Of a stretch of DNA of 64,000 bases, positions 3,001 to 63,000 are shown piece after piece. Location: NCBI GenBank assembly GCA_965202585.1, contig OZ241832.1:62806001-62870000 (forward strand), given 5' to 3'. The position numbers are program-made. Numbering within the stretch: the stretch's first letter is position 1; each line of letters starts with the position of its first letter. Source of the DNA: Thalia democratica. Taxonomy: Eukaryota.

Positions 3001-6000
3001 ATAGTCATCAAGTTAATCACAATTATATTAATACAAAGGGACTTTGACAGTTGAGTAGTGACGAACGTTTTTAGTAGCTTCACATGACTCTTTTGACCAT
3101 TTATTTATATCAGAATCATAACATAGTATGACTTTTGAAATATTATAAAAATTCAATATTTTACCCCCAACTAAAGAAGATTCGCCTTCAAATGAAAAAA
3201 AACTTCGTCCTTGAAGTGTTACAAACATATTGCTAGTTTTATCAAAAACTTCACAATTAGCGTTTAAATCTGCACCACCAATGACAAACAATTTGCTTTT
3301 AACACAAACTAAACTATGATTAGCTCTCTCTTCAATCATACTTGGCATTGGTGTCCAAGTATCACCATATACATCATATGATTCTACTGTTTTTAAAACA
3401 TTTAAATCATCTCCACCACCTGAAACTACAATACTTTCTTCAAATATTGTACAAGCTGCACAAGATCTTTTTTCCTTCATTTTTGCAATTTGTTTCCATT
3501 TAAATAATTTTGCATCAAATTCAAGACTAGAATTAAAACAATCAGTTTCATTATCATCACCACCAAAAAGATAAATATTATCAACATAAGCACACGAACA
3601 AAAGTTTAGACGTTCATCAGGTATATCAGTTACTTTAATCCATGTATTAGTTACAGGTGAATATTTTTCAACTGATTTGATAGGACCTTGTTTATTAAAT
3701 CCACCAAAAACATATATTTCTCCTTTAAGGTATACTGATATTAAATAATACCGTTCTTCTAACATTGGAGGAAGATCCTTGTGTTTCTCAAAATTGTTCA
3801 CATCTAACACCTTTACTTGATTTATGGCTTTTTCTTCCTCATCATCTACACCTCCACAAATAAGAGTATTGAACATGTTTTGGTTACAGTGTCTACTTTT
3901 ATTATGAATAAACGGTAAACGGTACACATTCTGGTAATAACAATCTCTGTTTTTCAATACTTCAAGACAATCCTTATTCTTTGAAATACAAGAAGAAAAA
4001 CTTATGAGATGTTTTAAACACTGATCTGATAAAAGATTAAGACGAACTCTTAATAATAATTGTTTTGCGAATTTGCTACGTTCTTCTATCTTGTAACTCA
4101 ACCATTTATTTGATGTATTGTAAATTTCAACTTCTGAATCAATTTGTAAACTAGAACTTGCAAGTATTTTAAAGACAGTATTAAAATCTAACTCTAGAAA
4201 GCTTTCTTTTTCAACTATCATACTAAAACAACGTTCTATGTATCTAAAAACAGTTAAGTAAAGATCTGACAGGTTGAATTTTGAGGCTAGCTGATAAAAC
4301 AATACTGCATTTTGAATTTGTAGTTTTTCGTTTAGTTTTTCAACTGCTTTACTTATCGAATGTTCATTTAATGAATGTTTAGTTAATTTCATAGCTGATG
4401 TTAGTTCACAATGCTCTCGAGTCGACTCATTTCATCTGAAATTTTTTAACTCAAATTAATTCAGTTATAGTATATTTAGCTGTTGATAGGTGTTACCAAG
4501 TACATTACCTACATTATATGTAATTTTTAGCTAAAATTAAATAATTACTACTTGTTTATAAAAAATAACATTAATTAGTTAATGTAGAAGTTTTAAAAAT
4601 TTTGAAGTTTTGAAAAATTTTTTGTGTTTTTTATTATCCGTTTTTTTTATGTTTAAAATATTAAAATTGTATTATATTATAATTGAATAATTTTTTCTTA
4701 TTATGTTATACAAGTTACAAATGTCAATTTAAATAATAATATTTCTGCAAATCAAAAACATACAACACACATCTTTACAAAAAGATTCATTTCTAAGATA
4801 TCAGCAAACATTATCATTATGATTTTAAATATACATTTTTAACACTAACGTAAAAAAAACTACACCACAGTACTTGCATTATACTTTAAATACTAAAAAT
4901 ATAAAAATTGTTTATATAAATAGCAAAAGCATCTTAAAATGTGTTAGTATAACTTACTTTTTATCAAATTAATTAGTGTTATATATTTGAAGCATTTAAT
5001 TATAACATGTACTTAACAGATATTACATATCTAACACAATTTCTTAAAAAAAAACTTGAATAATTATGTTTTAAAACTAAATATTTGTTGACTAAACAAC
5101 GGATACAGTTAAAACAACAATTAAAATCTAATCTGCAATACTTTATTGTACTGTAAGAGTCAGTTAAGTAAGTATAAAAAGTATGCATTACACTAATTGA
5201 AATCAATTTTCAAAGTTCATTTCTATAAAAAGGTTAAATTAGATAAACATAACTGTTTTTCTCTTCAAAGTTATTAGTTGAACAATATGTACAGAATAAA
5301 GTTGTTACTTACACATAACACTGACTTACCCATCTTATTAAAGCCATCAGAAATTTGCAAAGTTTTACCTTGGAAACTAACTTCAGAATTTTCCTTGCAT
5401 AATTTTAGAAAACTATTACGTTTATCAACATTACAAGCGTTCAAATTTCCTTCACAATTCTTCACACCACTTCCGCTTAAACTGATTCTCGCAGACATGA
5501 CTTTAAAATTTTTATTATCCAGTATATTTTTACAGCTGTACTAAAAGTAATTTAACACTTTTAACAGTTAAAACTAATAAGTCAAAGTTTGAATATTTTT
5601 GAAATAAAAACCATTTGTAACTAACTGTTTTTTTATTTTATTAATACTATTTTCTTTTTAAAATACTTTAATACTAGTATTTAAAATATATTTAACGTCT
5701 AGTTATTAATATGATAATATTTAGGGTGTACGGTTAAGGTATAACTAAACTAACACTAACAATTATATTTAAATTTATTTTAGAACTAAATGATATTAAA
5801 AGTATTATTACCAATTGAAACAACTAGGCATGAACTTTGTTGGTTTTATTTATCTTATCTAACACTAAAAATATATCAAGAACATCATACTTTATATAAT
5901 ATTTTATATGTAGTCAAAACTTTTAAACAAGAATCAAATTTAACAGGAATAAACTTTAAGAAGGGACAATTATCTACTTGGAATTCAAATCAAAACATTA

Positions 6001-60000: not shown

Positions 60001-63000
60001 TGGTGATAATAACAACACAAATTGTGAAGTTTTTGACAAAACTAGCAATGTGTTTGTTACACTTGAAACACCTGAATTTTGGTCATATGGGGTGAAAGCC
60101 ATTTCATTTAGAATTAAAATATTTGTCTTTTTAAATTTTACTCAAAAAGTTTTATGTTATGATGTTGTTAAAGATGAATGGTCAAAAGAATCATGTATAG
60201 TTACTGAAAATATTTCAGATTATTCAGCTGTCAAAATACCTTTATTTTAAAAAACATAGCATGAACTAGATGTTTCTTTTTTTGATGAGGTATTAAACTT
60301 TGAGTAAGCTAACTTAAACAACTAATTATTATTATTGTTTAAGTTTAAGCAGTTATTTCGTTTTTCAGTCTCTTTATACTTGTTAAGTGCTAAACTTGTT
60401 TTTTTAATTAGTACTAAAGATAATTGAAAAAAATTTAACGATGATTTTTAACATCAAAACAAGCAATTTCCTTAAATAAAATTTAAACTAACCGATTTAA
60501 ATACGTTTTGTGTTTATTAATAACAATTTAGCTACCGTTAAAAATTTTTTATATCACTTTTTGTTTGTAAACTTTATATATATTTAAAAGCTTTAATAGT
60601 TTCATAAATTTATAAACTTATACTTATACTTATTAAACGTTTTGACTGAATAGAAATTTCATGAAATAATAGTAAAGAATTTATTTTATGAATGTTTTTT
60701 ATGGTGTATAGTTTTCGAACATAAAACATTCGTATAAAGTTAATAAACCTACTAAAGTTATTGTGTTTCTACTTAATATGAAAATTATTTGACTTCTTAC
60801 TTTCTTAGTTCAATAAATCTGTATAACCTATATAAAGAAATTTGTTACAGTGTAAAAGACGTTAAAAGGTATCTGTGGTGTGCGACTAGATAACCGAAAG
60901 GTTTTTTTATGCAACAGGTCCTATTTATCTTTTTTTTACGTCAGCGACTTTTTTTCGTGAAATAAACTATACATGACGTAAACAAGATGTTAAAAAATGA
61001 TATACTTTTCAGAGTTGATAAAATTTTACTATTCCGATCTGATAAAATTTTAAATATTACTGAAATGCTTACTGCATTTACTAGCTCTATTTACAAAAAC
61101 TCGTAAGCACTTTAAATATTTATAAAAGTTTTAACTATTTAAAAACCTTAAGCATTTTTTTGTTATCAAGTATTTAAAGTATCTATTTTATATATGATTA
61201 CTTTTACACGTAAAAAGCTAATAGTTATGACATTTAATTAATTTCAGTACGAAAATACTATTTGCAAGTATTATTTTAATTATTTTTATATTAAAAAGCA
61301 CGTTTTATTCTAAACAAAATCAAAATAATTTTAAATTAAAATAACCACAACTTTCTATTAAGTAAAAAAAGAAGTTAAAACGTGTGCTTAACATTAGTAA
61401 TTAATAATTTTTTTACTTATAATTATACTAAAAGAATCAAAGTTGATAATAAGAATTGTTAGATTTGATCTAGAAAAGATAAGGATCTTGATCTAGAAAA
61501 TTTTAAATAATGTTATGTTTTTTAGGTAATAATTTGTATAATTTGGATTTTTTTTCTTAAAAAAAAAGTTACTGTAATCAATTTCATGTTACGAATTAAA
61601 AATCAGCATTTAATAAGAGCTATTAAATAGCTATATAAAAAAGACAAAATTGAAAATATTTCACAATTTTTAAAAGCAAATTAAAAATCAGATTGAAAAG
61701 TAAAAGTACTTATTTCGTTATACGATTGGGACATTGAAAAGGATACTTAAATTTTGCAGTAATTATTTAAACAGTCTTGTATAACTAATTTTAAAAAATT
61801 TTTGAAAATATTGTAACATATACAAATGTATCTACAAAAAAAAAGTGTTTGTTTAAAACTCTAAACTAAAATTTAAACAGTAGTTATATTATTATTCATC
61901 CTATAAATAAAAACAAATTGTTCAGTAATCTTCTTTTGTTGTACAACATATGTTTCTGTGTGTTAATGAATCAAGACACTTTAACTGGGTTCTGTAAAAA
62001 ATTATTACTGTAATGAAAGAATAGAAGCATAGAATAATATGGGTGTATACATGTTTTTTATCAAAATAAAATAATTTCTACAAATAATAGTTGATAATAG
62101 GTAAAATATTTAATATTAAATCCGACTGTTATAAAACTATTTAATATTTGTAATTATTAAGTCTTAAACAAGTAAAGTAAACTAAAATACACAACAAAAC
62201 AATAAATCATAATATAAACAAAGCACTCACGTTAATGGGAAAGATAACTGATTCAAATTTACTGTTGTTAAGCAATGAAGGAAATACATTCTTTACATTT
62301 AATAATTACGTCACAATATAAATGAGGTTGTTTCAACTGTTTAATTTGTATTGCAAAGTTTGTCAATTTAGTTTTTATGTTTGTAATCTATTTGAACAAA
62401 ATAAAACATCAACCATTAGTTAAAGAATTAATAAAATTTAATAAAACTTAACAACGGCGAAGACAATAAAAGTCACAAAAACTCAATGTAACATGTTTTT
62501 ATATATTAAATGCTTGTAAAGGTTAAATCAAAGTTATGTACAATTAGGAAGCAGATTTAGTTTAAATGTAAAACTAAAACATTAAAAAGTTAAAATTTAA
62601 GAAATCAAAACACAAAAAAAAACAAACTTGTTATTGACTTACAAACTACTGACCGATAATTAAGTTGCAGCGACATAAATAAAATCACAATGACTAAAAA
62701 TTACATATAAACTGTGTTTAATAATTATAAAAATATAAAAAAATAATTGGTTGATAAAGTAGCAGTCGGGTGTTTAAATTAAATGTCTCATATAGATATT
62801 TTAAATATTTAATAAGTAAACATGTGTTATATATGAAAGTTAAAATGTAAAATAACAAGGTGGTTATACAGTAACCTCTCGCTTATTTACGCACATTGTG
62901 TCCACAGAAAAAGTGCGTAAAGATATGAGAGATCGTAAAGATACGAGAGGTATCAAATATACTTACTATAATGGCTGTTTTTTTATATTGCTTCTAGTTA

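What the first reader, a model, noticed from the sequence alone, without database searches (positions are those of the whole stretch)
3028..60250. Expanded kelch-like family that appears to keep only the C-terminal half of the BTB domain
Seen: five paralogues with the same two-exon, phase-1 layout. Established: KLHL proteins are BTB-BACK-Kelch; BTB dimerises and, with the 3-box, binds CUL3. By eye, exon 1 plus the first residues of exon 2 match the second half of BTB: LNISYVD..SFLNFCK..EVNF..KNLQ and KIKLEEIS...IF.NFL.FC resemble I.L..(V/I).....F..LL.F.YTG.I.I...NV, and SNKLDV....RCEII resembles A..LQ...L...C..F. The canonical YTG is replaced, and I found no N-terminal half (AHR.VL...S.YF) in the window. 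Inference: CUL3-uncoupled or monomeric decoy adaptors, or a re-purposed N-terminal module.
Basis: partly seen in the sequence, partly recalled or inferred. Interest (0 to 1): 0.65.

Follow-up and report, generated by a model that had tools for sequence, protein, structure and literature searches.

The report
Kelch gene family with amputated BTB
Five tandem copies (two intact) of a fast-evolving kelch-like gene keep the BACK and Kelch parts but only the last two helices of the BTB domain, so they are probably not ordinary CUL3 ligase adaptors.

Summary
The five two-exon, phase-1 paralogues are real, but only c2 (533 aa) and c4 (522 aa) are intact. c1 has a 5-nt insertion at the start of exon 2, and c3 and c5 are pseudogenes. 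Exon 2 encodes BACK plus a six-bladed Kelch propeller. No BTB is detected by Pfam in either exon. Anchored by BACK, the first ~35 residues of exon 2 align in register with the last two BTB helices, and the intron falls just after the canonical YTG position. Exon 1's by-eye BTB likeness has no statistical support: HHalign probability 0.1%, HMM scores at chance rank, 0 of 30 relatives hit BTB, and AF2 gives one helix. These tests have little power. A start Met conserved in 29 of 30 relatives, in-frame stops upstream, and no BTB-like upstream ORF argue against a missing exon. The spliced (joined) protein was not searched or folded. Function is inferred, not shown.

The parts
22468..22651 (+). c2 exon 1 (61 codons + 1 base, ATG at 22468, donor G|GTAAGT)
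   Evidence: exon-1 family HMM 101.7 bits
23403..24820 (+). c2 exon 2 (intact; with exon 1 gives a 533-aa model counted exon by exon)
   Evidence: acceptor TTTCAG| at 23402; Pfam BACK 5.7e-19, Kelch_1 1.4e-26; AF2 pLDDT 91.6
23403..23509 (+). c2: remnant of BTB, two helices (exon-2 residues 3-19 and 22-35) equivalent to A4/A5 (alpha5/alpha6)
   Evidence: AF2 helices; PDB profile alignment reaches KBTBD2, KLHL3 and KLHL11 last BTB helix; HHalign to BTB+BACK prob 99.1, E 5e-19, exon 2 starts 1-2 residues after 'YTG'
23516..23902 (+). c2: BACK domain including the 3-box helices
   Evidence: Pfam PF07707; KEAP1, KLHL11 and KLHL3 alignments
23951..24811 (+). c2: six-bladed Kelch propeller
   Evidence: Pfam Kelch families; AF2 strands 183-469; Foldseek Kelch domains E about 1e-24
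48932..49109 (-). c4 exon 1 (59 codons + 1 base; divergent subtype with an 11-residue longer N-terminus)
46445..47835 (-). c4 exon 2 (intact; 522-aa model counted exon by exon)
5330..5498 (-). c1 exon 1 (56 codons + 1 base)
3028..4435 (-). c1 exon 2: long ORF intact, but a 5-nt insertion just after the canonical acceptor breaks the phase-1 frame (cryptic acceptor would start the exon at 4415)
   Evidence: compared with c2 and c5; ORF
37921..38104 (+). c3 exon 1
38995..40390 (+). c3 exon 2 remnant, pseudogene: acceptor AG is GG, stop in the second codon, 1 frameshift and 2 in-frame stops (4 ORF pieces)
57795..57978 (+). c5 exon 1
58857..60250 (+). c5 exon 2 remnant, pseudogene in 5 ORF pieces

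Best explanation
This is a lineage-specific family of kelch-like proteins, tandemly duplicated and evolving by birth and death, in which the BTB domain has been amputated. The phase-1 intron lies just after the canonical YTG position. Exon 2 keeps the last two BTB helices (A4/A5). In solved KLHL structures these pack with the first two BACK helices (the 3-box) into a four-helix bundle. They are followed by a full BACK domain and a six-bladed Kelch propeller. Exon 1 supplies a short (56-61 aa), polar, lysine- and serine-rich, family-specific N-terminus that begins at a conserved Met and has no detectable BTB similarity. Shown: the architecture, the gene states, the in-register A4/A5 remnant, and the absence of a detectable BTB or of an upstream BTB exon. 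Inferred: the proteins lack B1/B2/A1/A2 and the N-terminal extension used for BTB dimerisation, and they lack the loop that clamps the cullin repeat. They therefore cannot act as conventional dimeric CUL3 adaptors. The Kelch propeller most likely still binds targets. The proteins would then act either as CUL3-independent binders or decoys, or as weak monomeric binders of the CUL3 N-terminal extension through the retained A4/A5-3-box-BACK groove.
For: Pfam finds BACK (E 4e-20 to 6e-19) and Kelch (E 1e-26 to 2e-37) in the three long exon-2 ORFs, and no BTB at E<=1 in exon 2 or in 4 exon-1 ORFs. c4 exon 1 gives 0 families. 0 of 30 exon-1 relatives hit BTB at E<=10. AF2 of c2 exon 2 with 104 relatives gives pLDDT 91.6 and pTM 0.90, with helices 3-19 and 22-35 before the first BACK helix 38-50. 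Foldseek gives Kelch domains at E about 1e-24 and full-length KBTBD2 8h36_B over 467 columns. A profile of the exon-2 N-terminus finds 13 PDB sequences at E<=1, led by KLHL11, KLHL3 and KBTBD2; the alignments run back to profile position 22, the last BTB helix. HHalign of the exon-2 N-terminus against 34 canonical BTB-BACK sequences gives prob 99.1, E 5e-19, 167 columns, with exon-2 residue 2 two residues after YTG. None of the 120 listed relatives (463 with E<=1e-3 among 5377 candidates) carries PF00651. The exon-1 profile against 1.84 billion representatives gives 26 hits at E<=1e-3: 25 are short ORFs of 52-110 aa, 20 of those 25 start exactly at the Met, and no long protein contains exon 1. 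Met is at position 1 in 29 of 30 sequences. In-frame stops lie 5-14 codons upstream of the ATG in all five copies. dN/dS is about 0.5 in exon 2 and 0.2-0.8 in 6 of the 7 exon-1 pairs for which it could be computed. Published structure (passages read): the 3-box helices bind BTB alpha5/alpha6 in a four-helix bundle, the Cul3 N-terminal extension lies in the groove flanked by alpha5/alpha6 and alpha9/alpha10, and the alpha3-beta4 loop clamps Cul3.
Against: The spliced protein was not searched or folded as one chain, so a BTB-like fold formed jointly by exon 1 and A4/A5 cannot be excluded. The tests on exon 1 have low power: the genuine A4/A5 segment alone reaches only prob 0.3-0.5% against BTB, and BTB HMMs do not pick up the exon-2 ORFs either. 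My BTB reference is mostly KLHL10-type (32 of 34 sequences). The conserved hydrophobic pattern in exon 1 (L24.IF.V29, F35L36.F38C39, V45.F47) is compatible with a strand-helix-strand like B3-A3. A conserved acceptor-like ACAG lies 37 nt upstream of the ATG in c1, c2, c3 and c5, and TTTTTTTAG lies directly before the short upstream frame in c4. An upstream exon spliced there is therefore not formally excluded. One exon-1 pair (c1-c5) gives dN/dS 3.46 on about 30 synonymous sites. There are no transcript data, no CUL3 sequence of this organism and no binding test. The database relatives are ORFs called on unannotated contigs, so their exon structure is unknown.
Confidence: 0.6

Rival explanations
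1. One reading: exon 1 is a strongly diverged B3-A3 (plus extended linker), so the proteins keep the whole C-terminal half of BTB (B3, A3, A4, A5) and lack only B1/B2/A1/A2.
For: Exon 1 lies exactly where B3-A3 should be, directly before A4. The conserved hydrophobic pattern alternates, then turns helical, then alternates again. By eye, c4 exon 1 (IKLEEISLPLNIFVNFLTFCKK) resembles V.L..V.P..F..LL.F.Y. Insertions after A3 are tolerated in Skp1 (passage in PMC1257465). The negative tests have low power.
Against: HHalign of 30 exon-1 sequences against BTB, the BTB C-half and the BTB N-half gives prob 0.08-0.21%; the c4-type subset gives 0.13-0.30%. Exon-1 ORFs rank 133-1287 of 1728 against BTB HMMs. 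Pfam finds 0 of 30. The PDB profile search finds only 4 non-significant SVBP chains among 177,635 sequences, and c4 exon 1 gives 1 non-significant hit. The ESM Atlas gives no usable hit in either of 2 searches. AF2 of exon 1 alone gives one helix 8-60 with no strand, pLDDT 73. The register needs 13-20 extra residues between 'FCK' and A4.
Confidence: 0.25
2. The gene models are incomplete: an unseen upstream exon, far away or too diverged to detect, supplies the N-terminal BTB half, so these are ordinary BTB-BACK-Kelch adaptors.
For: Acceptor-like ACAG or TTTTTTTAG lies upstream of the ATG, and the frame is open for 14 codons in c1, c2 and c5. There are no transcript data. Weak isolated BTB-N-like ORFs exist in the window.
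Against: Met is conserved at the same position in 29 of 30 exon-1 relatives, followed by S-A. 20 of 25 database exon-1 ORFs start at it. In-frame stops lie 5-6 codons upstream in c3 and c4. 0 of 113 upstream ORFs hit BTB. No upstream hit appears among the BTB HMM top hits. The two weak BTB-N-like ORFs lie downstream of c1 and c5, the latter on the opposite strand, and have nothing BTB-like next to them. No long protein containing exon 1 is found among 1.84 billion representatives.
Confidence: 0.07
3. The array is decaying junk: none of the copies makes a functional protein.
For: 2 of 5 copies are clear pseudogenes and 1 is damaged at the acceptor. Non-coding flanks are nearly as similar (70-74%) as exons (74-76%). 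dN/dS is only moderately below 1.
Against: c2 and c4 keep about 470-codon open frames in a 24% G+C sequence where stops are frequent. dN/dS is about 0.5 over about 1100 non-synonymous sites. Hundreds of open relatives of 440-500 aa exist. AF2 folds the exon-2 product with pLDDT 91.6.
Confidence: 0.05

Closest known systems
BTB-BACK-Kelch (BBK; KLHL/KBTBD) CUL3 substrate adaptors, e.g. KLHL11, KLHL3, KBTBD2, KEAP1
   Same: BACK domain and six-bladed Kelch propeller in the same order. The last BTB helix aligns in register with KLHL11, KLHL3 and KBTBD2 chains.
   Different: There is no detectable BTB core (B1-B3, A1-A3) and no long-form N-terminal extension. The N-terminal ~62 residues are a family-specific polar exon. 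BBK proteins are described as long-form BTB (~120 aa) + BACK (~130 aa) + Kelch (passages of PMC1257465).
Human KLHDC7A (Kelch protein with a predicted BACK domain and no BTB)
   Same: BACK-like helical region followed by Kelch repeats, without a BTB domain. Its function in the ubiquitin system is unknown (passages of PMC12035522).
   Different: Homology to this family was not tested here. KLHDC7A is a single gene with a long N-terminal region, not an expanded tandem family. Whether it keeps the A4/A5 helices is not known to me.
Minimal or variant BTB folds (ElonginC lacks A5; Skp1 has insertions after A3)
   Same: They show that the BTB fold tolerates loss or insertion of peripheral elements (passages of PMC1257465).
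   Different: Those proteins keep the B1/B2/B3 sheet and A1-A4. Here it is the sheet-bearing N-terminal part that is missing.

Membership tests
BTB-BACK-Kelch (KLHL/BBK) | BACK domain (PF07707) between BTB and Kelch | tested here: met
   Pfam E 4.1e-20, 5.7e-19 and 4e-19 in c1, c2 and c4, above the gathering score. PDB profile hits KLHL11 at 6e-12 and KLHL3 at 2e-11.
BTB-BACK-Kelch (KLHL/BBK) | C-terminal Kelch beta-propeller | tested here: met
   Kelch_1 E 1.7e-34, 1.4e-26 and 2.2e-37. AF2 gives six blades. Foldseek TM (target-normalised) about 0.9 to Kelch domains.
BTB-BACK-Kelch (KLHL/BBK) | Complete BTB/POZ domain (PF00651; core B1-B3, A1-A5) | tested here: not met
   No PF00651 at E<=1 in 3 exon-2 ORFs and 5 exon-1 sequences. 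0 of 30 exon-1 relatives at E<=10. 0 of 120 listed relatives carry it. HHalign of exon 1 against BTB gives prob 0.1%. Tested exon by exon only; the joined protein was not tested.
BTB-BACK-Kelch (KLHL/BBK) | Last BTB helices (alpha5/alpha6 = A4/A5) packing on the 3-box | tested here: met
   Two helices are predicted directly before BACK. They align in register in HMMER-PDB and HHalign. The segment alone is not significant, so the assignment rests on the BACK anchor.
BTB-BACK-Kelch (KLHL/BBK) | BTB-mediated homodimerisation and CUL3 binding | not testable with these tools
   No CUL3 of this organism is at hand. Complex prediction never ran (queue full, then unavailable; last).
KLHDC (Kelch-only proteins) | Kelch repeats without BTB and without BACK | tested here: not met
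   A BACK domain is present. The definition comes from passages of PMC12035522.

The most novel reading that the evidence does not exclude
A large, rapidly diversifying repertoire of 'BTB-amputated' kelch receptors. A new lysine-rich N-terminal exon replaced B1-A3 at an intron just after the YTG position, leaving a minimal A4/A5-3-box-BACK stalk. That stalk would either recruit CUL3 as a monomer through its N-terminal extension alone, or have been re-purposed for a cullin-independent partner. On this reading the family is a natural experiment in uncoupling Kelch substrate recognition from dimeric CRL3 assembly, possibly serving as decoys or as a recognition repertoire.
Probability: 0.3. Interest if true: 0.6.

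Novelty: new variant of a known kind. Interest (0 to 1): 0.4.

Why it matters
BTB-Kelch proteins are the largest class of CUL3 substrate adaptors, and their activity is thought to depend on BTB dimerisation and on BTB plus 3-box contacts with CUL3. Here a family of hundreds of members has shed most of BTB at a precise boundary while keeping the helices that build the 3-box bundle. It would show what the BACK-Kelch unit can do on its own. It would also give natural constructs for separating the two CUL3 contact sites described for KLHL11. If the proteins turn out to be decoys or cullin-independent binders, that is a new use of the kelch-like scaffold. If an upstream exon exists, the finding is ordinary.

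Tried and rejected

Rfam and tRNA scans of the window found nothing.

The exon-2 search returned only unnamed ORFs called on short contigs. Their N-termini read through the intron, so no spliced model was obtained. P0147 (532 aa) likewise has no BTB and no exon-1-like N-terminus.

The exon-1 profile search over 1.84 billion representatives found no full-length, retrocopy or cDNA-derived protein.

The ESM Atlas gave no usable hit for c2 or c4 exon 1.

AF2 of exon 1 alone gave a single long helix at moderate confidence. A single helix is a common outcome for an isolated peptide, so I treat this as weak evidence.

The scan of bacterial and archaeal genomes returned 4 loci among 115 pattern matches. 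All were Chloroflexi-type Kelch proteins at 22-25% identity over the propeller only, and irrelevant.

Complex prediction was meant to test whether the exon-1 peptide packs on the exon-2 N-terminus, with the two given as separate chains. It never ran: the queue was full and the tool was then declared unavailable. There is no result.

I considered and dropped a by-eye reading of exon 1 as the N-terminal BTB motif (HK.FL....S..YF like AHR.VL...S.YF), and also an ungapped register placing A3 at NLQIFDGSNKL. Three mutually exclusive by-eye registers are possible and none has statistical support.

Literature searches turned up no description of an expanded BTB-truncated BACK-Kelch family. These were a few keyword searches of open-access text only, so I do not claim it is unpublished.

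The organism was not identified. I did not look up the accessions of the unnamed records.
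Full report
**What is in the window.** The 64-kb window has 21-28% G+C and no N. It has no tRNA or Rfam match. It looks like AT-rich eukaryotic DNA with GT-AG introns, and I do not take it for human. Family HMMs run over all 1728 six-frame ORFs of 20 aa or more find exactly five copies of one gene and no further fragments. The copies are c1 (minus strand, 3028-5498), c2 (plus, 22468-24820), c3 (plus, 37921-40390), c4 (minus, 46445-49109) and c5 (plus, 57795-60250).

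**Gene structure.** Every copy has a 56-61-codon exon 1 that starts with ATG and ends in G|GTAAGT, which is phase 1. Every copy has an exon 2 behind a TTTCAG| acceptor, and the introns are 751-1096 nt.
- c2 (533 aa) and c4 (522 aa) are intact; the lengths were counted exon by exon.
- c1 has a 5-nt insertion right after the acceptor. It gives a stop 11 codons in, unless a cryptic CGAG| acceptor 20 nt downstream is used.
- c3 has lost the acceptor AG (now GG) and carries stops and a frameshift.
- c5 exon 2 is broken into five pieces.
- Flanks and introns are 70-74% identical between copies and exons 74-76%.
- dN/dS is about 0.5 across exon 2. In exon 1 it is 0.2-0.8 for six of the seven pairs that could be computed, with one noisy pair at 3.46.

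This is the pattern of a young family evolving by birth and death under weak constraint.

**Limit on method.** No joined protein was translated, searched or folded, and this limits what can be said about the N-terminal ~100 residues as a unit.

**Exon 2.** Pfam finds BACK (E 4e-20 to 6e-19) and Kelch repeats (Kelch_1 E 1e-26 to 2e-37) in c1, c2 and c4, with no BTB at E<=1. AlphaFold2 on c2 exon 2 with 104 family sequences gives pLDDT 91.6 and pTM 0.90: a helical BACK followed by a six-bladed propeller. Foldseek matches Kelch domains at E about 1e-24 and full-length KBTBD2 over 467 columns. The model begins with two helices, residues 3-19 and 22-35, at pLDDT 65-68, before the first BACK helix at 38-50.

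**Exon 2 starts with the tail of BTB.** A profile of the first 170 residues finds 13 PDB sequences at E<=1, led by KLHL11, KLHL3 and KBTBD2. The alignments run back to profile position 22, onto the last BTB helix of those chains. I built a reference alignment of 34 canonical BTB-BACK-Kelch proteins: 32 named KLHL10-type proteins plus P0170 and P0171. HHalign of the family's exon-2 N-terminus against BTB+BACK gives probability 99.1%, E 5e-19, over 167 columns. Residue 2 of exon 2 falls two residues after the canonical YTG.

Exon 2 therefore carries the A4 and A5 helices in the nomenclature of Stogios et al. 2005 (passages read). These are alpha5/alpha6 in the KLHL11 paper, which describes them packing with the 3-box helices alpha7/alpha8 into a four-helix bundle beside the groove that holds the Cul3 N-terminal extension (Canning et al. 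2013, passages read). They cover about 38 of the 116 columns of my BTB alignment, roughly a third of the domain. The anchored alignments instead put the C..F(L) helix at SKAFENF, one helix further on.

**Exon 1.** Five separate approaches fail to show any BTB likeness.
- Pfam: no BTB in four exon-1 ORFs at E<=1, none in c4 exon 1, and 0 of 30 family members at E<=10. The 21 families that were hit were each hit by a single member.
- PDB: the 30-sequence profile finds only four non-significant SVBP chains (E 0.3-1.2), and c4 exon 1 finds one hit at E 6.3.
- HHalign against BTB, its N-half and its C-half: probability 0.08-0.21% for the 30 sequences and 0.13-0.30% for the c4-type subset.
- My BTB HMMs: the five exon-1 ORFs score -1.9 to 1.5 bits and rank 133 to 1287 among 1728 window ORFs.
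- The ESM Atlas gives no usable hit.

AlphaFold2 on exon 1 alone predicts one helix, residues 8-60, at pLDDT 73.

In the paralogue alignment, c4's KIKLEEIS lines up with c3's NFKIAKTN and not with LNISYVD.

Against over-reading these negatives: the genuine A4/A5 segment on its own also fails (probability 0.3-0.5%), so the tests have little power for short diverged pieces. The conserved hydrophobic positions of exon 1 (L24.IF.V29; F35 L36.F38 C39; V45.F47; L52.I54) would also suit a strand-helix-strand. I therefore rate 'exon 1 is a degenerate B3-A3' as a live but unsupported rival (0.25).

**Is an upstream exon missing?** Several results argue against it.
- The exon-1 profile searched against 1.84 billion representatives finds 26 proteins at E<=1e-3. 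One is an unrelated repeat protein and 25 are short ORFs of 52-110 aa. 20 of those 25 begin exactly at the Met, and no long protein contains exon 1.
- In the 30-sequence alignment the Met is present in 29, followed by S (25 of 30) and A (23 of 30). c4 instead starts 11 residues earlier, as do three relatives.
- In-frame stops lie 14 codons upstream of the ATG in c1, c2 and c5, 6 codons upstream in c3 and 5 in c4.
- None of 113 ORFs of 38 aa or more on the gene strand within about 8 kb upstream hits BTB, and none is among the top hits of my BTB HMMs.

The residual doubt is an acceptor-like ACAG 37 nt upstream of the ATG, conserved in c1, c2, c3 and c5 next to a TATA-like ATATA, and a TTTTTTTAG in c4. 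These could be a trans-splice or 5'-UTR acceptor, or less likely the acceptor of a coding exon.

**The wider family.** The exon-2 search finds 463 proteins at E<=1e-3 among 5377 candidates. The best 120 listed are 39-68% identical, all come from unnamed records, and none carries PF00651. Their N-termini read through the same acceptor region. The intron before A4 is therefore a family trait. Because these are ORFs on unannotated contigs, their first exons are unknown.

**Most likely mechanism.** The Kelch propeller is intact and evolves fast, so it is probably still a binding module. B1/B2/A1/A2, the long-form N-terminal extension and the alpha3-beta4 loop that clamps the cullin repeat are not detectable. 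Conventional dimeric CUL3 adaptor function is therefore unlikely. The A4/A5-3-box-BACK groove that holds the Cul3 N-terminal extension may persist. This leaves two inferred possibilities: cullin-independent binders or decoys, or weak monomeric CUL3 binders. None of this was tested.

**Comparison with known families.** The proteins work like, and derive from, BTB-BACK-Kelch proteins but fail the defining BTB test, so I do not file them as regular members. The nearest described architecture that I found is human KLHDC7A, which has a predicted BACK domain without BTB and no known role in the ubiquitin system (passages of PMC12035522). Homology to it was not tested. Keyword searches found no description of such an expanded truncated family, but that is not proof of absence. 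Supplementary files were not consulted.

**Verdict.** This is a new variant of a known kind and of moderate interest (0.4).

Noticed in passing
window 62271-62387 (-): An isolated 39-aa ORF contains IKQLKQPHLYCDVIIKCKE, which matches the start of a BTB domain. It scores 15.4 bits (E 9e-4 over 1728 ORFs) with my N-half HMM, and 0 of 40 shuffle sets reach that score (maximum 12.4). Nothing BTB-like follows it. It lies 2 kb downstream of c5 on the opposite strand. It may be a relic of a BTB exon or a chance match.
   Followed up: partly
window 2242-2421 (-): An ORF with KHCSLYFCVLFDT resembles the S.YF..MF part of BTB (12.5 bits; 0 of 40 shuffle sets reach it). It lies 600 nt downstream of the c1 stop and has no BTB-like neighbours in any frame.
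   Followed up: partly
window 17788-19562: A ~1.77-kb element is bounded by 32-nt inverted repeats (84% complementary). It has subterminal GC-rich 41-42-bp tandem repeats at 17826-18008 and 19360-19489, and it accounts for the local rise in G+C. It looks like a non-autonomous DNA transposon.
   Followed up: partly
window 40813-41510: A 327-bp tandem repeat (2.1 copies, 97% matches) lies immediately downstream of the c3 pseudogene.
   Followed up: no
window 31401-31625 and 37029-37250 (+): Two similar ORF-like stretches (IVLI.ILFTIVLLFLKTSCNFFLKIEK...) lie upstream of c3. They look like a dispersed repeat.
   Followed up: no
25-55 nt upstream of the ATG of c1 (5523-5553), c2 (22413-22443), c3 (37866-37896), c5 (57740-57770): A conserved block TTAC.TT.A..ACAG.T.TA.A.ATATA and an invariant AAGTCATGTCT start context. 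The ACAG may be an acceptor for a spliced leader or a 5'-UTR intron, and ATATA may be a TATA-like box.
   Followed up: partly
window 4415-4435 (-): c1 carries a 5-nt insertion (a TCGAC/TCGAG duplication) just after the exon-2 acceptor. The otherwise open 467-codon frame could be rescued only by a cryptic acceptor.
   Followed up: yes
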